NCBI RefSeq assembly: GCF_046105845.1 | Contig: NZ_CP151004.1 | Source: Escherichia coli | GTDB lineage: Bacteria > Pseudomonadota > Gammaproteobacteria > Enterobacterales > Enterobacteriaceae | Strand: one strand, 5' to 3' | Length of the DNA: 64,000 nucleotides | Shown: piece by piece, positions 39,182 through 57,697 of the stretch | How positions within the stretch are numbered: position 1 is the first letter of the stretch | Layout: every line of letters starts with the position of its first letter | Made by a program: the position numbers and the translations under genes | The notes under the pieces: model-generated | Database searches by the model: none | What the model saw: the letters and a program-made list of their open reading frames with translations, nothing else | Told to the model about the DNA's origin: nothing

Positions 39182-40891
39182 TTATTTCACGTCCTGACAG
39201 GCGTCAGAACGCGGAACAAGACTGATTTCGACGCGCCGGTTGACTGCCCGGCCCTGTGGCGTATCGTTGGTCGCCGCAGGCTGGCTCTCACCCAGTCCCT
39301 GTACGGCAAAACAGGTGGCCGGGATGTCGCTGGTCTGCAGCATCCAGTTACGCACCGCTTCGGCACGTCGCAGCGATAACTGCTGATTGCTTTTTTCGTC
39401 GCCGGTGGCGTCGGTATATCCGGCCACGAGGATAAGCCAGCCCGGTTTTGCCCGGATGTTCACCAGTGCGTCCACCAGCACTTTTGTCGAGCCGTCTTTC
39501 AGGCGGGCCTGTCCGACGTCAAACAGCGACATACTGTCAAGACGCACGGTCTGTGCCTGAAGCGAGGCTGTCACTTCCATTTTTTGCTCAGGCGGACGCC
39601 AGTCACGAATGGCGCGTAATACCGGCTGGCGGATTTGTTCACCGGGGTATAACCCCAGACCGAGACGCAGTGGCTCTCCTTCCCGGTAATACCCATCGAG
39701 CATGACCGCATCGTCTTTCAGCACCGACAGACGACGGGCTTTGGTGATAAATTCCTCCGCCGGAACGGCATAAAACTGGTGCAGATCATCACCGATATGC
39801 CGTAATAACTGGCGATTCGCCGTGGCTGACAGACACAGCGCGGCGATACCCGCCGCGGTGGTGATGCCCAGCATGGTCACGCAGGCCCGCCGCAGCGGGG
39901 TAAAGCCCGACTGACGCGGCAACCGCCGTAACAGGGCATCCGGAAACGGTAGCGTGGCGTCTGTGCCGGTGTCCGCGATATCCGTCGTCAGGCCGGTTCT
40001 GGCGGTGATCCACACTTGCCACAGGTTGTTATCCACTGCAGGCAACGAGGGGACCAGCCCCACGGCCATCGCCAGTGGCGGACATTTCGTTTCCGGGCCG
40101 TTCAGTGCCGCCAGCACATTAAGATTCAGCCACTGCATCAGGCTTTCGGCTTTCAGCAGGTAACAGAGTGGCTGGCTGCGCTCCTGTGTGCTGGTCTGCG
40201 TGAGCCACTGCGCAGGGGAGGTAGTCTCAGCAGACGTCGCTACCTGAATTTCGCCGCCGGTACAGATAAGCCACGGCGAATGCGCCTTCTCCGGCAAGGG
40301 CGAGCCAGACAGCCCGCTCCAGAGAAGCCACGGCGAATGCGCCTTCTCCGGCAAGGGCGAGCCAGACAGCCCGCTCCAGAGAAGCCAGGGGACGTTTACG
40401 CCCGCCCGGCGACGCACTGTCGCCATACTGTGGGCGAACCGTCGCAGTTGCCCGGCCAGAACCGCCACATCCCGGTGTATGCCGGGCATGACGGTATACG
40501 CCACGGCAAGCTGCGATGCCCACGCCGGGCGAAGGGTCAGTAATCGCTCCGCCTGCGCCACAAGCTGTTCTTCATCAGAAACATGCAGATACAGCCCTTC
40601 TGAAACCTGCCGGACCGGGCTGTCAGTGAACAGGCGCGCCGACATATCGCCACAGACCAGCACTACCGGTTGTCGGTACGTTTCCGGCGGCAGCGATGAC
40701 AACCCGGCATCGCCGGTCATCTCCGTCCACGCCTGCCTGCGCCGGTAAATCAGCAACGCGGCAACCGCCAGAACGATAGCCGCCGCCCCGGCCCATCTCA
40801 GTACGCCAGACGGACTGATAAACACCGACCACAGCACCAGCAGTAACACCATTCCCCACAGCACGATGGCCTGTTTCAGCGTGTTCCTCAC
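39182..40891 (-). CDS. tagL: T6SS accessory membrane protein with C-terminal OmpA-like peptidoglycan-binding domain (TagL-like)
   Basis: 569 aa; N-terminal transmembrane segments; C-terminal OmpA motif (LVAGYTDATGDEKSNQQLSLRRAEAV...NRRVEI); between tssL and hcp. Confidence 0.8.
   Translation of the reverse strand: MRNTLKQAIVLWGMVLLLVLWSVFISPSGVLRWAGAAAIVLAVAALLIYRRRQAWTEMTGDAGLSSLPPETYRQPVVLVCGDMSARLFTDSPVRQVSEGLYLHVSDEEQLVAQAERLLTLRPAWASQLAVAYTVMPGIHRDVAVLAGQLRRFAHSMATVRRRAGVNVPWLLWSGLSGSPLPEKAHSPWLLWSGLSGSPLPEKAHSPWLICTGGEIQVATSAETTSPAQWLTQTSTQERSQPLCYLLKAESLMQWLNLNVLAALNGPETKCPPLAMAVGLVPSLPAVDNNLWQVWITARTGLTTDIADTGTDATLPFPDALLRRLPRQSGFTPLRRACVTMLGITTAAGIAALCLSATANRQLLRHIGDDLHQFYAVPAEEFITKARRLSVLKDDAVMLDGYYREGEPLRLGLGLYPGEQIRQPVLRAIRDWRPPEQKMEVTASLQAQTVRLDSMSLFDVGQARLKDGSTKVLVDALVNIRAKPGWLILVAGYTDATGDEKSNQQLSLRRAEAVRNWMLQTSDIPATCFAVQGLGESQPAATNDTPQGRAVNRRVEISLVPRSDACQDVK
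40270..40383. repeat. Perfect in-frame 57-bp tandem duplication (2 copies) inside tagL
   Basis: gccacggcgaatgcgccttctccggcaagggcgagccagacagcccgctccagagaa occurs twice back-to-back, encoding SPWLLWSGLSGSPLPEKAH twice. Confidence 0.9.
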
Positions 40892-40903
40892 TCACGACTC
40901 CCT

Positions 40904-41569
40904 TTAACGCAGGCTTTGCGGCAGCAGTTCATCTACCAGTACATTCAGCCAGTGGTGTAGCCCCCACCAGACGCCCGCCAGTAGCAGCGCCAGTGTTACC
41001 AGCCAGAAAAACGGCGAATGCAGCAAAGGGTGCTGACGGGTGGATAACGGCACGTTCAGTACCGCCGTTTCCGGCAGCACGCCAAATGGCGCGACCTGCC
41101 CGTTGAGCGTCGAAATAAGCTGGTCGCGCTCCGGGGCCACCGGATCCTGATAACGCCCGCGAAATCCCAGCAGCAGGACACGGTGAAAGCAGGTCAGCAC
41201 AGCCTGTGCAGGTGCGGGCTCCTGCAACACCTGCTTCATCCGTTCGTACAGCAGCTCGCCTGCCTGCAGGGTGTTGAAGAAATGCGACTGGAGTGGATCC
41301 TTCATCCAGATGGCCTGACCGTCGTCCATGCCGCCACGGCTCAGGACCGTTTCGTCCAGCAGGGCGCACTGTGCGTAAGTTATGTGCTCCACGCTCTCCC
41401 GGCTGAACCCGGCATCTTTCAGGCGTTCGCGGACCCCTTCCACCTGCCGCTGGCAGTGGCGATACAGCTCCATACCGTGACGCACGGTGGTTCCCTGACG
41501 CAGTTCCACCACCGTCAGAAACGTGTCGCGCAGCAGCGCGTCGATATTGATATCCGTCTCTTTTTTCAT
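40904..41569 (-). CDS. tssL: T6SS membrane-complex protein TssL (DotU-like)
   Basis: 221 aa; cytoplasmic DotU-like domain with C-terminal transmembrane helix (FFWLVTLALLLAGVWWGL). Confidence 0.85.
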   Translation of the reverse strand: MKKETDINIDALLRDTFLTVVELRQGTTVRHGMELYRHCQRQVEGVRERLKDAGFSRESVEHITYAQCALLDETVLSRGGMDDGQAIWMKDPLQSHFFNTLQAGELLYERMKQVLQEPAPAQAVLTCFHRVLLLGFRGRYQDPVAPERDQLISTLNGQVAPFGVLPETAVLNVPLSTRQHPLLHSPFFWLVTLALLLAGVWWGLHHWLNVLVDELLPQSLR

Positions 41570-42903
41570 GTGCGCAGCACCGCAAACAGTTCAGGTTTCA
41601 GGTCGCCCATGGTTCCCGGCGCATAAATCATGCAGCACCCGGACTCCAGCATCGATTTGGCCGCGTCACTGTGCATATCCAGCGCAAAATACTGGTTCTC
41701 CAGTCGCAGCGGCAGCGCCGCCGGAACTGAGGTCAGTGGCACCAGTGAAACACCGTTCAGCGCCACATTGATAAGCAGCGTGACGTCATCAGGCGCACCG
41801 ATTTTGCAGACCAGCGGTAGCTGGTGCAGTACCTGATGTGCCGGCAGAGAGGAACGAACGGACAGGTAAAAATCGGCCTCTTCCCGCAGGCGCGGATCGT
41901 GCAGGTCTGCTTTCCAGCGGTTGCCCGGCAGGGACGCCAGCTCCAGTGCGATCACCCGTGACGGCAGGCTGGCTTCCAGCAGTTCGCTGAGCAGGGAGAA
42001 CAGTGGCGGAAAGACGGTGGACGGCGATTCGTGGACATAGGGCGGAACGGCGCTGACGTTATGTTCAAGGGAAAACGTCAGCAGCGCTCCGGCAAGCCTC
42101 GCCAGCTCCCGCCAGACCAGTTCGGGATGAACTGCCGGGTAGCGCAGGAAATCTCTCAGTACCGGCTCAGCAGAATTCAGCGCGTTAAGCAGCCAGAACA
42201 GGGAGACATCGGCGATGGCGAAGTCCGCCATACGCTGGTTGCTTTCCCGGCGCATCGCCATCAGACGCTGACATTTGGCCCGTAGCTGCAACAGCAGCGT
42301 GTCCAGACGCTGTACCAGTCCGTCATGGGCGTTAAACGCCAGTAACGGTGGAATGTAATCGCCGTCCTGCGTCCAGTTGCCCTGAACATCCCGCACCAGA
42401 CGCGCCAGTGGGCAGGTGATGTAATCCTGATTGTTATCATGGACAAAGCGCAGGGACAGCGCATGACGCTCAACGGCCATATCTTCACTGTCACTGCCGT
42501 AGATATCCTGCACCTTTTGCCATTCCTGACGATAGCGTAGCGGTCTTTCAGTCTGCTCACCCTGACCGAGATTACCGCCGTTACCATGGGCAAGCGGCAG
42601 CGCCAGCAGAACAACCGCGCTGTCGTTCGTCAGCGCGTGCAGATCGCAGGCGAGAGGCAGAACATCGCTCACATCTGAATCGATCAGCGTGCCATCAGCA
42701 AAACGCAGGCGTACTGCCTGCGTTTTCAGCTTTCCGGACGTCAGGGCATCGCGGTCAAAGAGCACATTCGCGATCCCCCACGGATGACGAATACAAAGTT
42801 GCGCAATGCTGTCATTGCTGAACGCTTCCCAGCGGGCCTGCTGCTGAAACTGCTGAGAGGACAGGAATGTCCCCTCAGCCCACAGTGGTCGATGAATTTT
42901 CAT
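41566..42903 (-). CDS. tssK: T6SS baseplate protein TssK
   Basis: 445 aa starting MKIHRPLWAEGTFLSSQQFQQQ; TssK-like; 4-bp overlap with tssL. Confidence 0.85.
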   Translation of the reverse strand: MKIHRPLWAEGTFLSSQQFQQQARWEAFSNDSIAQLCIRHPWGIANVLFDRDALTSGKLKTQAVRLRFADGTLIDSDVSDVLPLACDLHALTNDSAVVLLALPLAHGNGGNLGQGEQTERPLRYRQEWQKVQDIYGSDSEDMAVERHALSLRFVHDNNQDYITCPLARLVRDVQGNWTQDGDYIPPLLAFNAHDGLVQRLDTLLLQLRAKCQRLMAMRRESNQRMADFAIADVSLFWLLNALNSAEPVLRDFLRYPAVHPELVWRELARLAGALLTFSLEHNVSAVPPYVHESPSTVFPPLFSLLSELLEASLPSRVIALELASLPGNRWKADLHDPRLREEADFYLSVRSSLPAHQVLHQLPLVCKIGAPDDVTLLINVALNGVSLVPLTSVPAALPLRLENQYFALDMHSDAAKSMLESGCCMIYAPGTMGDLKPELFAVLRT

Positions 42904-42920
42904 ATCACACCACTTCCCGG

Positions 42921-44465
42921 TCAGGCTTTCGCTTTCGGCATCTGGGAAACCAGTGACAGGTTGATATCCATCCCTTCAATCTGGAAATGCGGCACGGCAA
43001 AGAGTCTGACGCGGAAGAAGCCCGGATTGTCCTCAATATCTTCCACGATAACCTTGCCGTCGCGCAGCGGGTGAGACGCCTGCAGTTCATCACCCGGATC
43101 GGTCATCTCCGTCACCAGTGTGCGGATCCAGGTGTTCAGTTCCAGTTCCAGTACGCGGCGGTCTTTGGTGGTACCGATATTCTCGCGCTGGATGATTTTC
43201 AGGTAATGCGCAATGCGGGACAGCAGGAAGATATAGGGTAAACGGGCGTTAATACGGCTGTTGGCAGTGGCATCAGCGGTATCATACAACGCCGGTTTCT
43301 GGGCAGAGTTTGCCGAGAAGAAGCAGGCGTAATCGCGATTCTTATAATAAGAGAGCGGAATAAAGCCAAGGTTGGCAAATTCAAATTCGCGGGTTTCCGG
43401 GATCATCACTTCGGACGGAATTTTGACCTGATTGCCGGTGCCGAGATCGTAAAGATGGATGGGCAGATCGGTCACTGCGCCACCTGCCTGTGGACCACGG
43501 ATCTGCACACACCAGCCATTATTCACAAAGCTCTTCACCATATTGGCGGCAAAAGCGAACGAGGCGTTTGTCCACAGGTACTTTTCGTGATCCGGACCTT
43601 TGACTTCTTCCACATAGTTAAAGCTGCGTACCGGCACCGTGTCCGGCCCGTACGGCAGACGCCCCAGTACGCGCGGCATCACTAATCCCACATAGCGACT
43701 GTCATCCGTATCGCGGAACGATTTCCATTTAATATATTCTGCGCGGTCAAAGTAGTTGCCGATATCTTTAATCGCGGCGACTTCTTCCATCGAATTTTTA
43801 AGGAAGAATTTCGGCCCGACAGAACCTATAAATGGCATATGGGAAGCGGCAGACACTCTGGAAATATTGCGCAGCAGGGCAATATCCTGCGGGCTGTTAT
43901 CAAATTCATAGCTGGAAATTAATGAGGCAACAGGTTCGCCACCCGGCGTATCGTACTCCTGAATGTATGTATGACGATATAAACCGCTCTGAATGATTTC
44001 CGGGGAGTCGTCGAAATCCTGACGCAGATGCTCTTTGCTGATATCCAGCAATTCAATTCTGACATTTTTGCGAAAATCAGTGCGCTGTACGACGAACCAT
44101 GTGCCGCGCCACAGCGACTCGACTTTCTGGAATTCAGGATGGTGCATTACCGCATCAAGCTGCTTACTGATTTTCTGATCCAAATCGTCGATATGAAAAT
44201 CCAGCAGGCTCTTGTCGAGCTTGACCACGTTCTCGCCTGATTTCGCCAGACAGGAAAGCAGAACGTGAATCGCCGCTGTCACGCGCTCATCGGGTGAGGC
44301 ATCCGCCAGTGTTTCGCTGTTTTGCCATAAATCTATTTCCTGAATGGAAGACACCGGGGTTAAATTAATTTTATCAAACAGGGACTGATAAACGCCGCCG
44401 GACTCAGTGGTGGTCAGTGTTGCAGTTTCAGAGGTGGCATGTTCTTGTTGTACAGACATCAGCAT
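42921..44465 (-). CDS. tssC: T6SS contractile sheath large subunit TssC (VipB)
   Basis: About 512 aa; TssC-like; downstream of tssB. Confidence 0.9.
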   Translation of the reverse strand: MLMSVQQEHATSETATLTTTESGGVYQSLFDKINLTPVSSIQEIDLWQNSETLADASPDERVTAAIHVLLSCLAKSGENVVKLDKSLLDFHIDDLDQKISKQLDAVMHHPEFQKVESLWRGTWFVVQRTDFRKNVRIELLDISKEHLRQDFDDSPEIIQSGLYRHTYIQEYDTPGGEPVASLISSYEFDNSPQDIALLRNISRVSAASHMPFIGSVGPKFFLKNSMEEVAAIKDIGNYFDRAEYIKWKSFRDTDDSRYVGLVMPRVLGRLPYGPDTVPVRSFNYVEEVKGPDHEKYLWTNASFAFAANMVKSFVNNGWCVQIRGPQAGGAVTDLPIHLYDLGTGNQVKIPSEVMIPETREFEFANLGFIPLSYYKNRDYACFFSANSAQKPALYDTADATANSRINARLPYIFLLSRIAHYLKIIQRENIGTTKDRRVLELELNTWIRTLVTEMTDPGDELQASHPLRDGKVIVEDIEDNPGFFRVRLFAVPHFQIEGMDINLSLVSQMPKAKA

Positions 44466-44517: not shown

Positions 44518-45018
44518 TTAAACGTTCTCCTGCGGCGCAATTTTCGCCAGTTCATCACGCAGTTCTGAACTGAGCGTTGGGTCTTTCAGGATATTTTCCA
44601 GTTCACGGCGAAACGTTGCGTTATCCAGCAGATTGGATTTGAGGTCACGTAATAAATTGCGCATAGCGAGTAATACACGAAGCTGTGGGATATTTTTTGC
44701 TACCTGTTCGGGTTCAAAATCTTTCAGGCTTTTAAATTCAAGCGCGATATTTTGTTCATTACCGCTTCCGCTTAGTGTGTCTTCTACTGTTAAATTAACC
44801 GCAGGCGAAAACTCAGCCATGACACTGTTGAAGTTGTTTTTATTGATATCAATCTTGTCCCGTTCGGACAGCGGACGTTGCTCTTTTCCGTTACTGTAAT
44901 CGCCAACAGCAAGAAGCTTGAGGGGGAGTTCAACTTTCTTTTTAGCATTGCCTGTATGCAGGTCAAGCTTGATATTTACACGAGCGGCGGGAACTTCATT
45001 CTGGAAACTGTCGGCCAT
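44518..45018 (-). CDS. tssB: T6SS contractile sheath small subunit TssB (VipA)
   Basis: About 166 aa from MADSFQNEVPAARVNIKLDL; first gene of the T6SS operon. Confidence 0.9.
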   Translation of the reverse strand: MADSFQNEVPAARVNIKLDLHTGNAKKKVELPLKLLAVGDYSNGKEQRPLSERDKIDINKNNFNSVMAEFSPAVNLTVEDTLSGSGNEQNIALEFKSLKDFEPEQVAKNIPQLRVLLAMRNLLRDLKSNLLDNATFRRELENILKDPTLSSELRDELAKIAPQENV

Positions 45019-45045
45019 ATCCTTTTCCTCATCATCCACTTTCAT

Positions 45046-45657
45046 CAGGAGTGCGAGATAATCACGCGTGTGACTATCCCATAAGGATTATGACTATATA
45101 AAGATAAAAAACAAGAACAAATATAGAGACAGAAATATCATTTATAATTGCTGTGAATAATTATACGTCTATCTCGAAATTATATTATTTGAGAACATCA
45201 TCCCATTTTTAGGCGTTTTAGCTGTTAAGCAGACGGTTAAACCTATACATGTGTATACATGCATGAAAATACTGAAAAACAACAAGATCCACATCACAAA
45301 AATTTATTTTTCAGAATGACGGAATTCATGTTTTTTTCGCAAATTATTCACCATGCAAATATTTAATTTTTTTCATGCTTAATAAAATATGATGTTTACT
45401 CATATGCCAACTATGCTACCTGTTGACGCCACACACCAATACACAAAACAAATGCAACAATCACAAACCATAAAAATAAAATATGATTTAGCTATAGTTA
45501 TCAACAAAATAACATCACCACCATTTATAATTTTACTATTGATAAAAAATAGAAACTACGATAAATAATAAAGCATTACTTACCAATCATTCTTTTAAAT
45601 GATTCTGGAATGCAGTCTCCACTGCATAATTGGGCTGTGTTTTTTAAGGAGCAAGTA
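45046..45657. promoter_or_regulatory. About 600 bp AT-rich divergent intergenic region: T6SS (tssB) promoter region and promoter of the 313-aa gene
   Basis: Strongly AT-rich; contains a GATC site (around 45287-45290) and AT-rich Fur-box-like stretches; in the EAEC sci-1 cluster Fur/Dam control is established. Confidence 0.4.
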
Positions 45658-46599
45658 ATGCATACCATTCCTTATTATAGCAATAACACCTCTATGCCTG
45701 TCTGGGTTACTGTTAGCGAAGCAACTGATATTATCAATAAGTATACTAACAGCCATATTAAAGATTGTGACTTATGGCGTTATGCACTTTATGGTCACTT
45801 ACCTCTTTCAATTTATTTCCAGTCACAAATAAAGCTTAGAAAAATTTGCCTGAGCGGCGATGAAATCATGCTGGATAACATCGAAGAAAGCATTATTGAG
45901 AAGATAGCTCAGTTAAGTGATACGTGCATATACAATGGGAAAAATAAAATAATAAAGACAGAAGGTGACTATATTTCCCCAGAGCATCATATTATTGATA
46001 CACCATTAATTGGTCATGAATATATTGTATTACAAAGATTACTTGCTCACTCATTAAAAATACCAAAACCTATTACAGGACAGTATAATTCTCATTATGG
46101 TGTTGTCGTCCGTGAAAATGGAATAATTTATCAGGTCTTCGAATCAACTACACTGGAAAACAGAATAACCCAGCGCCTTCGCCATCTTTCAATCCCCGTT
46201 GCAACATACTTTTACGAATCAACAAAATCCCAGGATCTCAAACAGGCAGGAACCCGGTATTTCCCGGTTTATCATTTTCCTGACGATGCCTGGTTCGTTA
46301 TCAAACGCACTGCTCTTGAGCAATTCATAAATACTTTTCTCCCTCCCACTCATAAAAATACCCCTAAAAATGGAACCCGCATTTCTACACCGCTATCACG
46401 ATTTCTCTGGCTAGCGTGTAAGCACAATCATGATATTAGCGCACTGATGGGGCACCCCTACAAACTCCTCTCCGTGTTCGAAGAATGGGCCCGCTCCGAC
46501 GGTATCACTGAACGACTAAATGGAGATACGCTGAAAACCGCACTGGAACGCGGTTCTCCGGTTTTAGCCTACCGTAACTCCGAATTAATGAAATCCTAA
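45658..46599 (+). CDS. Hypothetical protein (island cargo, no family recognised)
   Basis: Likely start MHTIPYYSNN (ggagcaagta Shine-Dalgarno-like sequence upstream); about 313 aa; AT-rich 5' two-thirds. Confidence 0.5.
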   Translation: MHTIPYYSNNTSMPVWVTVSEATDIINKYTNSHIKDCDLWRYALYGHLPLSIYFQSQIKLRKICLSGDEIMLDNIEESIIEKIAQLSDTCIYNGKNKIIKTEGDYISPEHHIIDTPLIGHEYIVLQRLLAHSLKIPKPITGQYNSHYGVVVRENGIIYQVFESTTLENRITQRLRHLSIPVATYFYESTKSQDLKQAGTRYFPVYHFPDDAWFVIKRTALEQFINTFLPPTHKNTPKNGTRISTPLSRFLWLACKHNHDISALMGHPYKLLSVFEEWARSDGITERLNGDTLKTALERGSPVLAYRNSELMKS

Positions 46600-46699
46600 C
46601 TTAGAGTCCAGAAATCCTTACTTAGAGGTCTGCTGCTTTCCTTCGGTAGGTCTGATGATGTTGAATTGACTAGCACATCATCAACTACCGGAGGATAAA

Positions 46700-46885
46700 A
46701 TGACGTCACAACGATTTCTGCGGCTGGCACAGGTTATGGATAAAACCGGACTGAAACGCTCACAGGTCTATGCTTATATGAAAACAGGGGATTTCCCAAA
46801 ATCCGTCAAAATTGGCCCGTCCAGCGTAGCATGGCTGGAATCGGAAATTGACGAATGGATCAATACAAAAATAAATAACCGCTAA
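46700..46885 (+). CDS. alpA: AlpA-family phage/island transcriptional regulator (excisionase-like)
   Basis: 61 aa MTSQRFLRLAQVMDKTGLKRSQVYAYMKTGDFPKSVKIGPSSVAWLESEIDEWI, AlpA-like helix-turn-helix. Confidence 0.8.
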   Translation: MTSQRFLRLAQVMDKTGLKRSQVYAYMKTGDFPKSVKIGPSSVAWLESEIDEWINTKINNR

Positions 46886-46924
46886 TGTAGTATTCTCATT
46901 ATTAGTTTGTTTGAGGTCATTAAT

Positions 46925-47719
46925 ATGAACGATGATCACGGTATTCTTATGCCTGTCGCACTAAATCAGCTACGGGCATTTGATTTAAATCCACGCCTTA
47001 CCAAAAATCCAGAATATGATGAAATTAAAGAATCGATTCGCAACCGCGGGCTGGATTATCCGCCACAAATAACACAACGTCCGGGAGAATCTTTTTATAT
47101 TATTGCCAATGGAGGTAATACCCGGCTGGCAATACTCAACGAGTTATGGCTGGAAACTCACGATAAAAAATACTGGAATATTGTCTGTCATTTCTGGAAG
47201 TGGCATACAGACTGGAGCATTGAAGAAGGTAATTTACACTGCCTGCTTGGTCATCTCGTAGAAAATGATAAACGCGGTTCACTGACATTTATTGAACGGG
47301 CATTAGGGGTTCAAAGTGCAATAAACCTGTATCAAAGTATCCGGGGAAGCTCACAAAGAGATCTGGTACAAATGCTCTGTCAGGCGGGATATCCAGTATC
47401 CACCACGAAACTAAGTATTATGTCCGCGACTATCACATTTCTTTTACCCTATATTCCGGAAGCACTTTACGGTGGTCTGTCGAGACGTATTATCGATAAA
47501 TTGCTGGCACTTCGTTCCAATACGCTAAAATTCTGGGACAACTTCTGCCAGACGTTGCCTCCCGAAAAGGAACAGCAACTCCCTCTATTTGACGATATTT
47601 TTGCTATGGCCCTGACTCCCTTTAATGAACCGATGACAGGTTTTTCACTGGAGCATATTCAGGATGAGCTGACAGGGATTATCAGCAAGACACTTAATGT
47701 GGACTCTGCCCAGCGATAA
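46925..47719 (+). CDS. ParB/Srx-like N-terminal-domain protein (island-associated)
   Basis: Start MNDDHGIL after a gaggt Shine-Dalgarno; the motif YIIANGGNTRLAIL resembles the ParB N-terminal box; assignment tentative. Confidence 0.45.
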   Translation: MNDDHGILMPVALNQLRAFDLNPRLTKNPEYDEIKESIRNRGLDYPPQITQRPGESFYIIANGGNTRLAILNELWLETHDKKYWNIVCHFWKWHTDWSIEEGNLHCLLGHLVENDKRGSLTFIERALGVQSAINLYQSIRGSSQRDLVQMLCQAGYPVSTTKLSIMSATITFLLPYIPEALYGGLSRRIIDKLLALRSNTLKFWDNFCQTLPPEKEQQLPLFDDIFAMALTPFNEPMTGFSLEHIQDELTGIISKTLNVDSAQR

Positions 47720-47916
47720 CGGGATGGCCAGATTTGCGCCGGTGATATATTCAATGCCTCCGCAATCAACCGCTCACCTTTCGGCCAGTGGCTCCTGAGT
47801 GCATTTGCCAGCGTACCGGAGGCCAGCCCGGCTTTGCGGGAAACCGCTGCCAGCGACGTTCCCTGTTTTTTCAGTGCCGCGATAATATCTGCGGGGTGCC
47901 AGTCCTGCTGCATCAT
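47659..47916 (-). CDS. Ner/Nlp-family small DNA-binding protein
   Basis: From MMQQDWHPADIIAALKKQGTSLAAVSRKAGLASGTLANAL...; Ner-like helix-turn-helix; start overlaps the integrase stop. Confidence 0.55.
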   Translation of the reverse strand: MMQQDWHPADIIAALKKQGTSLAAVSRKAGLASGTLANALRSHWPKGERLIAEALNISPAQIWPSRYRWAESTLSVLLIIPVSSS

Positions 47917-49137
47917 ACTGCCCTCCCACAAACCAGCCGTTCGGACGGGATACCACATACACGCTGGCTCCACCACGCCATCACGTCGGTTCTCTGCTCA
48001 AGATAGGTCGAGCGGTTATAAGCGGCGCGCGTCTGATTAGTATCCGCATGAGCCAGTACAGCTTCTATCACATCAGGGGAAAATCCGGCCTCATTCAGCG
48101 TGGTGCTACCCAGCGCCCGGAAACCATGTGACACCAGCTCCCCGCAATACCCCATACGCCGTAGTGCCTTATTGACCGTTTCGCTATTCATTGGTTGCGA
48201 GGGCTTAACCCGACCCGGAAACAGGAACGGCGAGTGTCCACTTATCGGTTTAAGTTGCTCCAGTATCCACAGCATTTCATCAGTCAGGGGCACCAGATGC
48301 TCACGGCGTTTTTTCATACGCTCAGCCGGAATAGTCCATAGCTTTTTCTCCGTATCAATCTCACGCCACATGGTGCCTGACGCTTCTCCGGGGCGCACCA
48401 GCGTCAGCAACTGCCACTTAATCAGATAACGAGTCATCAGCGATAGATTGGTGGTTTCAATCCGCTGTACCAGCTCCGGCAGGCGTTCCGGGCGGATAGA
48501 CGCCATATGCTGTTTTTTCGGCTTCTCAAAGACCTTACCGATGGTCGAGGCTGGATTCGCATCAAGCAGGCCGGAATTGACAGCAAATACCATCACTTCG
48601 TTGATACGCTGGGTTAGACGACGCAGGGTTTCCAGCGCACCTCGTGCCCGGACCGGCTCAAGGGCGGCAATCAGAGTATGTGCTTTCAATTCAGCTACCG
48701 GCATCTGTCCGATTGACGGAAGAACATCCCGTTCCATCGAACGCCAGATATCATCTGCATGCACTTCTGAAATGCCACTGGTCTTTTTAATAGCAAACCA
48801 TCTTGTCGCCACATTGATAAACAGGCTGTCGATTGCTTTCTTTTCCTGTTCTGCGGCTTCCTGCTCCAGCTTTTTCGGATCTACACCCTGAGCCAGCAGA
48901 CCAAGATATTCATCATGTACTGCGGGCAGCAGCAAGAGTTACAGCAGGATAATAACCCAGCGTGATATTGGTACGGGCAGTGGAGTTTGGACGCTGGTAA
49001 CGAAAACGCCAGATTTTCTTCCCGGAAGTACGAACAGAAAGCGTCAGACCATGCCCGTCAGGCAGGTCGTAATCTTTATCGGCGGGTTTTGCTTTTTGTA
49101 CTGCGGCAGCAGTCAGCAGGCGGCGGGTAATGGTCAT
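47913..49137 (-). pseudogene. int: P4-type tyrosine integrase, interrupted by a frameshift
   Basis: N-terminal 74-aa ORF (48913..49137, arm-binding-like domain) and C-terminal 340-aa ORF (47913..48935, catalytic domain) lie in different frames with a junction near 48915-48935. Confidence 0.8.
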
Positions 49138-49398: not shown

Positions 49399-49475
49399 TG
49401 GCGGAACGGACGGGACTCGAACCCGCGACCCCCTGCGTGACAGGCAGGTATTCTAACCGACTGAACTACCGCTCC
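49399..49475 (-). tRNA. aspV: tRNA-Asp (GUC)
   Basis: Reverse complement reads GGAGCGGTAGTTCAGTCGGTTAGAATACCTGCCTGTCACGCAGGGGGTCGCGGGTTCGAGTCCCGTCCGTTCCGCCA. Confidence 0.97.
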
Positions 49476-57620: not shown

Positions 57621-57697
57621 TGGCGGAACGGACGGGACTCGAACCCGCGACCCCCTGCGTGACAGGCAGGTATTCTAACCGACTGAACTACCGCTCC
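57621..57697 (-). tRNA. aspU: tRNA-Asp (GUC), distal gene of rrnH
   Basis: Identical 77-nt sequence to aspV. Confidence 0.97.

What the first reader, a model, noticed from the sequence alone, without database searches (positions are those of the whole stretch)
45658..47916. Island maintenance module: unknown 313-aa protein, AlpA, ParB-like and Ner-like genes
Between the T6SS promoter and the integrase sit four small genes typical of integrative elements. The AT-rich 313-aa protein has no recognisable domain, and island-proximal positions like this often carry anti-phage or regulatory functions.
Basis: inference. Interest (0 to 1): 0.35.

Follow-up and report, generated by a model that had tools for sequence, protein, structure and literature searches.

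The report
Gutted conjugative element, orphan regulator
The four small genes are the two surviving ends of a conjugative element at the tRNA-Asp gene that lost its whole interior, and the unknown 313-aa protein belongs to a widespread, unstudied family that probably switches such elements on.

Summary
The four genes exist as described. They are not a maintenance or defence module. They are the two ends of an ICEclc-type integrative conjugative element (ICE) at tRNA-Asp whose interior was deleted.

- **Left end (+ strand):** the 313-aa protein "X", AlpA, and the N-terminal half of a BisD-type ParB-like protein, cut at about 47705.
- **Right end (− strand):** a Ner-like gene missing its 3' end, and a P4-type integrase broken by a 2-bp deletion.
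- **Intact relatives:** Salmonella and other enterobacterial contigs carry X–AlpA–BisD(479 aa)–BisC–TraR at the same chromosomal place.
- **X family:** about 400 clusters, nearly all named members from Enterobacterales, with no database domain and no fold match beyond an N-terminal MerR/Xis-type winged helix. In 43 of 54 species loci X lies about 160 nt upstream of alpA.
- **Conserved control region:** two roughly 12-bp palindromic sites 21 bp apart lie between X and alpA. Their sequence changes by lineage.
- **Proposed role of X:** X sits where ICEclc has BisR, the activator of the alpA promoter. No homology to BisR was detected. I infer an analogous activator role, with probability about 0.5.
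- **State in E. coli:** the module is decaying, with a nonsense codon, IS insertions and a frameshift in different strains.

Interest is modest. The locus is a remnant, but the X family and its operator are an undescribed variant of a known regulatory switch.

The parts
45046..45657 (.). AT-rich (about 28-35% GC) intergenic region between tssB and X. It presumably holds the X promoter and the lost left end (attL) of the element.
   Evidence: Homology with the T6SS of 1340 E. coli genomes stops at the tssB start. The region is shared only with strains MEW and CFIAFB20140388, with L001 among the loci fetched up, and at 87% with L069. Only the last 120 nt or so resemble the Salmonella locus L073, at 75%. 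No tRNA-Asp repeat was found.
45658..46599 (+). X: a 313-aa protein of an uncharacterised family. The predicted structure has an N-terminal MerR/Xis-type winged helix (about residues 16-63), a central alpha/beta domain of unknown fold (about 64-230) and a C-terminal four-helix bundle (about 245-300). It occupies the position of bisR.
46592..46627 (+). Two operator-like sites, AATCCTAACTTAGAG (46592-46606) and AATCCTTACTTAGAG (46613-46627), 21 bp apart. The first overlaps the X stop codon. They lie about 75-110 nt upstream of the alpA start.
   Evidence: Repeat found (D7). These are the only occurrences in the window. A homologous pair at the same place, exactly 21 nt apart, occurs in 43 of 57 related loci. 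The core varies by lineage with symmetric changes in both arms.
46600..46699 (+). X-alpA intergenic region, the presumed alpA promoter (PalpA analogue), with conserved CTGCTTT and GGAG elements.
   Evidence: Alignment of 46 intergenic regions. The consensus sigma-70 scan found no site here.
46700..46885 (+). alpA, an AlpA-family DNA-binding protein of 61 aa.
   Evidence: PF05930 E=8.6e-26. PHROG 2790, excisionase/regulator. dN/dS 0.10.
46925..47719 (+). bisD', the N-terminal ParB/CTP-clamp half (BisDpar) of a BisD homologue. The GGNTR and ENDKR motifs are kept. The linker and activation domain (BisDact) are deleted, and the last 4 codons plus the stop come from the other side of the scar.
   Evidence: TIGR03764 E=7e-81. 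Alignment to full-length proteins breaks after ...KTLNVD. It is 94.6% identical over residues 1-260 to the 479-aa BisD of L077, and DNA homology ends at 47705. The domain scheme comes from PMC12409273.
47704..47707 (.). Deletion scar joining mid-bisD to the 3' end of ner. The whole ICE interior is missing here.
   Evidence: The same junction is present in the diverged allele L069-L072.
47659..47916 (-). ner', a Ner/SfsB-like HTH_35 gene of 85 codons. The native sequence runs only to ...IWPSRYR. About 20 native C-terminal residues are replaced by 17 residues read from the antisense of bisD'.
   Evidence: PF13693 E=4e-30. NF007670 (SfsB) scores 96 bits, below its cut-off of 150. C-terminal comparison with L005 and L014. 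The ATGA overlap with the integrase stop matches gene calls in L069.
47913..49137 (-). P4-type tyrosine integrase pseudogene, split into a 74-aa arm-binding ORF and a 340-aa ORF by a 2-bp deletion near 48920.
   Evidence: Pfam Arm-DNA-bind_3, Phage_int_M and Phage_integrase. Alignment with the intact 408-aa gene of SC418, 99.1% identical. Intact in L069.
49399..49475 (-). tRNA-Asp (aspV), the integration site next to the integrase end.
   Evidence: ARAGORN.

Best explanation
The region is the collapsed shell of an ICEclc-type integrative conjugative element (ICE) that once sat between the T6SS island and tRNA-Asp. My confidence differs between steps, so I give each its own probability.

**1. 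Deletion of the interior (shown; about 0.85).** A single deletion from the middle of bisD to the 3' end of ner removed the interior. This took the BisD activation domain, bisC, traR, the replication and conjugation genes and any cargo. The two inward-facing ends remain: X -> alpA -> bisD' on the left, and ner' <- int <- on the right next to the tRNA.

**2. Identity of the ParB-like gene (shown by homology; about 0.9).** It is the BisDpar half of BisD, the CTP-dependent DNA-clamp subunit of the BisDC master activator of ICE transfer competence. It is not a partition protein. In ICEclc, BisDpar alone is inactive.

**3. Role of X (inferred; about 0.5).**
- In intact elements X is the first gene at the end far from the integrase.
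- It is separated from alpA by about 160 nt, which carry two palindromic sites 21 bp apart, upstream of the alpA start.
- I propose that X dimers bind these sites and activate the alpA-(bisD)-bisC-traR operon.
- This would be the "kick-start" step that BisR performs at PalpA in ICEclc. BisC, with or without BisD, would then turn on excision and conjugation.
- Which part of X reads the DNA is not resolved. The N-terminal winged helix is the obvious candidate.

**4. State of the circuit in this window (inferred; about 0.75).**
- The circuit is headless. At most, X could drive AlpA and a BisDpar stub.
- The integrase is frameshifted.
- Related E. coli strains carry a nonsense codon in X or IS-mediated loss.
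- The module is therefore a decaying relic.
For: **Anatomy and scar**
- ORFs and domain hits.
- BisD' aligns to full-length BisD only up to the start of the linker. DNA homology to the 479-aa gene of L077 ends at 47705.
- Ner loses its conserved basic tail at the same point.

**Intact counterparts at the same chromosomal place**
- Salmonella L073: tssB | X-AlpA-BisD479-BisC-TraR.
- S. salamae L075 and L077: yafT | X-AlpA-BisD480/479-BisC-TraR, followed in L075 by AcaB-DUF3158-SSB.
- Full-length 479-aa members sit in the same 90% cluster as the window's 264-aa protein.

**ICEclc reference**
- bisR (251 aa, no Pfam domain) activates PalpA. The operon is alpA-parA-shi-bisD-bisC. BisC is DUF2857 (PMC7423338).
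- BisD consists of BisDpar (GxxR, ENxxR), a linker and BisDact. BisDpar alone gives no foci, activation or transfer (PMC12409273).
- The same gene order is seen in Ralstonia L012.

**X family**
- 396 clusters.
- AlpA lies within 600 nt downstream in 43 of 54 species loci. BisC follows in 41 and TraR in 36.
- Distant relatives sit as int-X'-AlpA.

**Operator**
- The conserved pair is 21 nt apart. No second pair was seen in the flanks held, up to 10 kb on either side, apart from three loci with a duplicated X 3' end.
- L073 and L077 have AlpA 90%, BisD 93% and BisC 91% identical, but X only 51% identical. Their operators differ symmetrically in both arms: CCTAAGTAAGG/CCTTACTTAGG against CCTTATTAAGG/CCTTAATAAGG.
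- Operator identity correlates better with X (Spearman 0.74) than with AlpA (0.57) or BisC (0.58).

**Structure**

**Decay**
- 2-bp deletion in int.
- Nonsense codon 162 in the X of strain MEW.
- ISEc31 truncations.
- Truncated X variants of 161, 116 and 189 aa are on more contigs than intact ones.
Against: **Against X being a BisR analogue**
- No homology between X and BisR was detected. hhalign on the full profiles gives probability 0.4%, and the best sub-domain comparison gives E=0.025. The predicted architectures differ: BisR has a long coiled coil where X has an alpha/beta domain. The BisR analogy therefore rests on position and logic only.

**Against X reading the operator**
- L077 and L003 have X 68% identical but different operators. 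L077 and L014 share an operator at 56% X identity.
- No alignment column separates the operator classes.
- The correlations are confounded by shared ancestry.

**Against the simple deletion layout**
- In several related elements (L005, L014, L026, L033, L039, L041), int and ner lie upstream of X on the same strand. The "opposite ends" layout is supported only for the Salmonella/Escherichia subgroup, and its far end was never seen.
- attL was not found.

**Against pure decay**
- The same truncated layout is kept, with all five ORFs intact, in a diverged allele (L069).
- dN/dS is 0.2 for X and 0.1 for alpA. This leaves room for a retained function.
Confidence: 0.62

Rival explanations
1. X is a DNA-binding regulator of the alpA promoter, but a repressor or quiescence keeper (in the manner of SetR, cI or MfsR) rather than an activator.
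For: The evidence is the same as for the activator model: a winged helix, tight linkage to alpA, and a lineage-specific palindromic operator. The first operator site overlaps the X stop codon, so X transcription reads through the sites. No sigma-70 consensus promoter was detected downstream of the sites, so the position of the sites relative to the true promoter is unknown.
Against: The sites lie about 75-115 nt upstream of the alpA ATG, ahead of the conserved CTTT...GTGtTTTTTTGT block. That geometry is more typical of activators. The one characterised gene in this position, bisR, is an activator (PMC7423338).
Confidence: 0.17
2. The palindromic sites are read by BisC/BisDC (positive feedback) or by AlpA. 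X does something else in element biology, such as excision, replication or recipient establishment.
For: In ICEclc, BisDC also activates PalpA, and BisC sites are weak inverted repeats spaced by 12 bp (PMC12409273). X-operator co-variation is imperfect. Distant X relatives occur with int and AlpA but without BisC.
Against: AlpA, BisD and BisC are 90-95% identical between loci with different operator cores, while X is about 51% identical. No second site pair was seen in the up to 10 kb of element DNA downstream of alpA, where BisC-controlled promoters would be expected.
Confidence: 0.2
3. The truncated module is not junk. It has been retained in Escherichia as a working unit, for example with X/AlpA/Ner controlling the neighbouring T6SS or excision of the island.
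For: The same scar and layout are present in an allele whose X is about 11% and whose AlpA is about 16% diverged at the protein level. In that allele X (308 aa), AlpA (63), BisD' (264), Ner (85) and Int (408) are all intact. dN/dS is 0.10-0.24. The tssB upstream region was replaced by DNA shared with X, so X and the T6SS operon are transcribed divergently from one 612-bp region.
Against: The operator motif occurs nowhere else in the window, including upstream of tssB. Broken copies are frequent: a nonsense codon, IS insertion and int frameshift. The divergent X-alpA block sits between 98-99% identical flanks. This is best explained by import from another ICE, where the purifying selection would have acted. 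BisDpar alone is inactive in ICEclc.
Confidence: 0.12
4. X is an anti-phage or anti-plasmid defence protein carried at the island edge, and the ParB-like gene serves island maintenance or partition.
For: The gene is AT-rich, has no known domain and lies next to an integrase. Defence genes do occur in related islands, such as the retron near the distant relative in L006.
Against: X has no PADLOC hit. It has fixed synteny with regulatory genes across 54 species instead of a variable cargo position. No nuclease, ATPase or NTPase fold was found. The ParB-like protein belongs to TIGR03764 (BisD), has no ParA partner, and lacks its C-terminal dimerisation/activation half.
Confidence: 0.04

Closest known systems
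ICEclc bistability cascade: BisR -> PalpA -> alpA-parA-shi-bisD-bisC (Pseudomonas; PMC7423338, PMC12409273)
   Same: An orphan regulator gene with no Pfam domain lies directly upstream of alpA on the same strand. The alpA operon encodes a TIGR03764 ParB-like BisD with GxxR/ENxxR motifs and, in intact relatives, a DUF2857 BisC, followed by DUF3158 and SSB. The module sits at the element end opposite the integrase in the Salmonella/Escherichia subgroup.
   Different: X (about 300-313 aa) shows no detectable sequence homology to BisR (248-251 aa), and the predicted architecture differs. The enterobacterial operon has no parA-shi, and most members have no bisD at all (X-alpA-bisC-traR). A TraR-like zinc finger and AcaB follow. 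In the window, BisDact and bisC are deleted.
FlhDC-like master activators of conjugative elements (SetCD of SXT/R391, AcaCD and AcaB of IncC plasmids)
   Same: A dedicated heteromeric activator with an FlhC-like subunit switches on the transfer genes. An AcaB-family gene (PF08900) is present in intact relatives.
   Different: The upstream trigger is different: SetR/cI-type repressor or AcaB there, X here. None of these genes survives in the window.
CP4-57 / P4-type island head: IntA-(YfjH)-AlpA of E. coli K-12
   Same: A P4-type integrase next to a tRNA-type gene, an AlpA-family regulator, and a protein of about 310 aa of unknown function nearby.
   Different: YfjH is unrelated to X (BLASTP E=0.68; hhalign probability 0.1%) and lies on the opposite strand.
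Mu Ner / E. coli SfsB (HTH_35)
   Same: The Ner-like gene matches PF13693 over 68 of 75 profile positions.
   Different: It scores below the SfsB equivalog cut-off (96 bits against 150). It is translationally coupled to an integrase, and here it has lost its native C-terminal tail.

Membership tests
BisD / TIGR03764 ICE ParB-like protein | N-terminal ParB-type CTP-binding domain with GxxR and ENxxR motifs plus an HTH | tested here: met
   TIGR03764 E=7e-81, 272 bits against a cut-off of 144. GGNTR and ENDKR are aligned with BisD relatives. Motifs as defined in PMC12409273.
BisD / TIGR03764 ICE ParB-like protein | Linker plus C-terminal BisDact domain, required for foci, activation and transfer | tested here: not met
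   The ORF ends at the start of the linker: 264 aa against 479-550 aa.
BisD / TIGR03764 ICE ParB-like protein | Partner gene bisC (DUF2857) immediately downstream | tested here: not met
   Absent in the window. Present in L003, L073, L075 and L077.
BisR family (ICEclc orf101284) | Sequence homology to BisR | tested here: not met
   hhalign of A1 against A2 gives probability 0.4%. BLASTP finds nothing. The C-terminal sub-profiles give E=0.025, which is not significant.
BisR family (ICEclc orf101284) | Single gene directly upstream of alpA on the same strand, with the alpA promoter between them | tested here: met
   ICEclc layout.
BisR family (ICEclc orf101284) | Activates the alpA promoter and is needed for ICE transfer | not testable with these tools
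   Requires reporter and mating assays.
AlpA family (PF05930) | AlpA-type HTH over the full domain | tested here: met
   E=8.6e-26, residues 5-54 on profile positions 2-51 of 51.
Ner/SfsB (PF13693 HTH_35) | HTH_35 domain and an intact native C-terminus | tested here: inconclusive
   The domain matches at E=4e-30. However, the last 20 or so native residues are replaced at the scar, and the score is below the SfsB equivalog cut-off.
P4-type tyrosine integrase | Arm-binding, central and catalytic domains in one intact reading frame next to a tRNA gene | tested here: not met
   All three domains are present, but they are split by a 2-bp deletion relative to the 408-aa SC418 gene.
ParABS partition system | ParA ATPase partner and a full ParB with a C-terminal dimerisation domain | tested here: not met
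   No ParA in the region. TIGR00180 parB_part gives only E=0.17. The C-terminal half is missing.
Known anti-phage defence systems (PADLOC-DB) | Match of X to any defence protein model | tested here: not met
   0 families for X at E<=1. AlpA has only a weak mad1 HTH hit.
LAGLIDADG homing endonuclease (the label UniRef gives one member, P0041) | LAGLIDADG fold or motif | tested here: not met

The most novel reading that the evidence does not exclude
X founds a new family of transcription activators with a previously unseen central fold. In Enterobacterales it would replace BisR as the trigger of the alpA-(bisD)-bisC transfer-competence switch, reading a co-evolving pair of palindromes 21 bp apart. 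A bolder extension is that the gutted Escherichia copy still fires. It would then make AlpA and a BisDpar CTP clamp next to the T6SS operon, with which it shares a 612-bp control region.
Probability: 0.35. Interest if true: 0.55.

Novelty: new variant of a known kind. Interest (0 to 1): 0.36.

Why it matters
ICEclc-type elements spread resistance, virulence and catabolic genes. Their on-switch has been worked out only in Pseudomonas. Hundreds of enterobacterial elements, in Salmonella, Klebsiella, Citrobacter, Dickeya, Pectobacterium, Proteus and Morganella, keep the BisC core but have an unrelated, unannotated protein where BisR should be, together with a clear candidate operator.

This gives a directly testable entry point to how conjugation is triggered in clinically and agriculturally important Enterobacterales. 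Natural X/operator swaps between near-identical downstream operons could serve as specificity experiments.

For this window the practical message is about annotation. "ParB family protein" here is a BisD stub, and the four genes are a deletion relic, not a maintenance or defence module.

Tried and rejected
- **YfjH:** the 318-aa protein between intA and alpA in CP4-57 is not a relative of X.
- **Homology of X to BisR:**
  - Full profiles, single sequences and N- and C-terminal sub-profiles gave nothing significant.
  - A shared GIT[DE]R.L.G motif at the last helix is visible by eye only.
  - The secondary-structure outlines of the two AlphaFold2 models agree only in a beta-alpha-alpha start and a helical C-terminus.
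- **Fold searches with the X model:**
  - Foldseek on PDB and BFVD: no hit below E=0.05.
  - afdb50 was unavailable.
  - PDB profile search: only calbindin/S100-like at E=0.13 on residues 264-299.
- **attL:** I searched for a copy of the tRNA-Asp 3' end left of X and in related loci. None was found.
- **Operator near the T6SS or elsewhere in the window:** absent.
- **Sigma-70 and terminator scan of 45000-48000:** fewer promoter-like sites than in shuffles, and none at PalpA.
- **Co-variation of operator with protein:** suggestive for X but confounded by ancestry. No diagnostic residue was found.
- **pKLC102/PAPI-type "plasmid" records (L009, L010, L011, L013):** they have Arc-ParB-DUF2857 but neither X nor BisR next to it, so they were not informative for X. 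The hypothetical 242-aa protein in L009 is unrelated to X.
Full report
**1. What is there**

The window is Escherichia chromosome around tRNA-Asp (aspV, 49399-49475, minus strand). The genes dnaQ, rnhA, yafS, gloB and mltD lie to the right, and a T6SS cluster lies to the left, with tssB at 44518-45045 and tssC at 42921-44465 on the minus strand.

Between tssB and the tRNA lie the following features:
- A 612-bp region of 28-35% GC.
- X, 45658-46599 (+), 313 aa, with an AAGGAG ribosome-binding site.
- alpA, 46700-46885 (+), PF05930 E=8.6e-26.
- A ParB-like ORF. Its best start is 46925 and it ends at 47719 (264 aa). It matches TIGR03764 "ICE_PFGI_1_parB" at E=7e-81.
- A Ner-like gene, 47659-47916 (-), HTH_35 E=4e-30.
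- A P4-type integrase split into two ORFs, 48913-49137 and 47913-48935.

X has no hit in Pfam, NCBIfam or PADLOC, and only a PHROG hit at E=0.21.

**2. The four genes are two ends joined by a scar**

- The ParB-like protein aligns with full-length relatives of 479-550 aa only as far as "...ISKTLNVD". This is exactly where the linker to the C-terminal domain begins.
- It is 94.6% identical over residues 1-260 to a 479-aa protein on contig L077. DNA homology to that gene stops at 47705.
- On the other strand, the Ner-like gene keeps its HTH_35 domain up to "...IWPSRYR". It has lost the conserved basic tail of its relatives ("...YFDKSGQLIDRKK..."). Its last 17 codons are read from the antisense of the ParB-like gene.
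- The integrase differs from the 99.1% identical, intact 408-aa gene of E. coli SC418 by a 2-bp deletion near 48920, which shifts the frame.

**3. What the element was**

Intact versions sit at the same chromosomal place:
- S. enterica L073: tssB(-) | X (77% identical) - AlpA - ParB-like 479 aa - DUF2857 - TraR-like.
- S. salamae L075 and contig L077: yafT(-) | X - AlpA - ParB-like 480/479 aa - DUF2857 - TraR. In L075 this is followed by AcaB - DUF3158 - SSB - DUF3577 - DUF3275.
- The same series is seen in Klebsiella L003.

This is the regulatory core of the ICEclc/PFGI-1 family. In ICEclc, bisR (251 aa, no Pfam domain) activates the alpA promoter. The alpA-parA-shi-bisD-bisC operon then yields BisDC, which activates all transfer-competence promoters and its own promoter (PMC7423338).

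BisD is a ParB-like CTP clamp. BisDpar carries the G92NTR95 and ENxxR motifs, and a linker joins it to the activation domain BisDact. BisDpar alone gives no foci, no activation and no transfer (PMC12409273). A Ralstonia record shows the ICEclc gene order (L012).

The window's ORF keeps GGNTR and ENDKR but is BisDpar only. It is therefore a BisD stub, not a partition protein, and there is no ParA.

The simplest history is one deletion from mid-bisD to the 3' end of ner, which removed the whole interior. In the Salmonella/Escherichia subgroup, X is the first gene at the end next to yafT or tssB. This fits an ICEclc-like layout in which the integrase sits at the opposite end.

Three caveats apply:
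- I never saw the far end of an intact element of this subgroup.
- No attL repeat was found.
- In other subgroups (Dickeya, Pectobacterium, Morganella), int and ner lie upstream of X on the same strand.

**4. The X family**

- X has 396 homologous 90%-identity clusters. All the named ones listed are "hypothetical" proteins of about 300-310 aa, almost all from Enterobacterales.
- A profile search of 1.84 billion representatives finds 500 at E<=0.001. These include relatives of about 310 aa that match only positions 11-240. They too have no Pfam domain.
- One such relative is wedged between a P4-type integrase and AlpA.
- A scan of GTDB species genomes gave 54 loci. AlpA starts within 600 nt downstream of X in 43 of them, with a median gap of 162 nt. 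BisC (DUF2857) follows in 41 and a TraR-like gene in 36. A BisD gene lies between AlpA and BisC in only 7.
- Most exceptions are contig ends, broken X genes or insertions of several kb.

The AlphaFold2 model has mean pLDDT 80, and about 90 for residues 14-230. It shows three parts: a beta-alpha-alpha-beta-beta winged helix, an alpha/beta domain, and four C-terminal helices.

- Foldseek finds nothing in PDB or BFVD.
- A PDB profile search gives only calbindin-like E=0.13 on residues 264-299.

**5. A conserved control region**

Every X-alpA spacer carries two roughly 12-bp palindromic sites whose starts are exactly 21 nt apart. They lie about 115 and 94 nt before alpA. A conserved CTTT, a GTGtTTTTTTGT block and the ribosome-binding site follow.

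- In the window the sites are AATCCTAACTTAGAG (46592-46606) and AATCCTTACTTAGAG (46613-46627). This motif occurs nowhere else in the 64 kb.
- The majority type is CCGTATTAAGG...CCGTAATACGG.
- Other lineages have CCTTATTAAGG/CCTTAATAAGG, CCGCGTTGCGG/CCGCAACGCGG or CCTAAGTAAGG/CCTTACTTAGG. The changes are mirrored in both arms, which marks a protein-binding site whose specificity has shifted.

Which protein reads the sites?
- L073 and L077 have AlpA 90%, BisD 93% and BisC 91% identical, but X only 51% identical, and their operators differ.
- The window and L017 have AlpA 90% identical but unrelated operator cores.
- No second site pair occurs in the up to 10 kb downstream of alpA, where BisC-dependent promoters would be expected.
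- Operator identity correlates with X identity (Spearman 0.74) more than with AlpA (0.57) or BisC (0.58).

These points favour X, but they do not prove it. The correlation is confounded by ancestry. L077 and L003 (X 68% identical) have different operators. No single residue tracks the operator class.

**6. Relation to BisR**

X sits exactly where bisR sits. However, profile-profile comparison of 31 X and 26 BisR sequences gives probability 0.4%. The best sub-domain result, C-terminus against C-terminus, is E=0.025.

The BisR model has an N-terminal helical domain, a 45-residue coiled coil and three C-terminal helices. X has an alpha/beta domain in place of the coiled coil. I therefore call X a positional and probably functional analogue of BisR, not a member of its family.

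**7. State of the module in Escherichia**

- Only 2 of 5426 complete E. coli genomes carry X-alpA-bisD' (MEW and CFIAFB20140388). There bisD' is cut by ISEc31, and X of MEW, the one translated here, has a stop at the invariant codon E162. SC418 keeps only ner'-int beside ISEc31.
- In the protein collection, truncated X forms of 161, 116 and 189 aa are on more contigs than intact forms.
- Against pure decay, a second allele (L069-L072) has the same scar with all five ORFs intact.
- Between that allele and the window, the flanks, bisD', ner and int are 98-99.5% identical. The block 45046-46900 is only 84-91% identical. dN/dS is 0.20 for X and 0.10 for alpA.
- The block was most likely imported by recombination from another ICE, so the purifying selection may have acted elsewhere. 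A retained function cannot be excluded. I give it about 0.12.

**8. Verdict**

The "maintenance" and "anti-phage" readings are not supported.

- The locus itself is an ordinary deletion relic.
- The more interesting result lies outside the window's own biology. X represents a large, unannotated family with an unmatched central fold. It is coupled to a lineage-specific operator at the head of the alpA-bisC operon of enterobacterial ICEs.
- This is a new variant of the ICEclc switch, and it can be tested with simple reporter, binding and mating experiments.

Noticed in passing
L036:8376-14405; L045:3100-8710; L055 (X to alpA): In three species loci, 5-6 kb of cargo sits between X and alpA. In L045 it is a fusaric-acid-type efflux system (FUSC + HlyD) with an AraC regulator. 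In L036 it is ornithine cyclodeaminase, DDAH, an amino-acid permease, an AsnC regulator and an IS3-type transposase. The operator pair is present on both sides of the insert, and in L036 a 74%-identical copy of the X 3' end is also duplicated. The X/operator junction therefore looks like a recurrent place where cargo is captured.
   Followed up: partly
window 45042-45046 (tssB start): Homology with the T6SS of 1340 complete E. coli genomes ends exactly at the tssB start codon. In the one such genome examined (ETEC-2264, L068), this tssB lies next to three tRNA-Met genes (metV locus), not aspV. The T6SS operon in this lineage therefore has a different upstream control region, shared with X.
   Followed up: partly
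window 47704-47710; L002:8003-8020: E. coli SC418 has the same breakpoint in ner (after ...SRYR) but a different sequence on the other side. That sequence is the 3' end of what looks like a VagC/AbrB-type antitoxin gene, 320 bp from ISEc31. Two different rearrangements share one breakpoint, and I cannot explain this.
   Followed up: partly
window 48918-48922: The integrase has a 2-bp deletion (GCCCG--CAGT against GCCCGCACAGT in SC418), which splits it into 74-aa and 340-aa ORFs. This could be a real pseudogene or an assembly error.
   Followed up: yes
window 45046-46900 vs L069:9364-11240: This is a sharply bounded block of 84-91% identity between 98-99% identical flanks. The middle of X (about residues 100-230) is nearly identical while its ends differ. 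The pattern indicates mosaic recombination with other alleles of the element.
   Followed up: partly
window 46592-46606: The window's left operator site (CCTAACTTAGAG) differs at 4 positions from the clade consensus (CCTAAGTAAGGA in L069, L073 and L075). As a result it is now a direct copy, not an inverted copy, of the right site. This may reflect decay or conversion of the operator.
   Followed up: no
window 57621-57697: A second tRNA-Asp gene with an identical 3' end lies downstream of dkgB, next to an rRNA operon (as in strain MEW). It is the only other match to the att-type probe.
   Followed up: no
window 40000-42200: GC content rises to 0.60-0.65 inside the T6SS cluster, against about 0.50 in the flanking core genes. 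I did not examine this.
   Followed up: no
P0041 and the BisR family (P0290, P0329 etc.): Database names are misleading. One X homologue is labelled "Homing endonuclease LAGLIDADG" by UniRef, and many BisR homologues are labelled "Receptor protein-tyrosine kinase". Neither label is supported by any search made here.
   Followed up: partly
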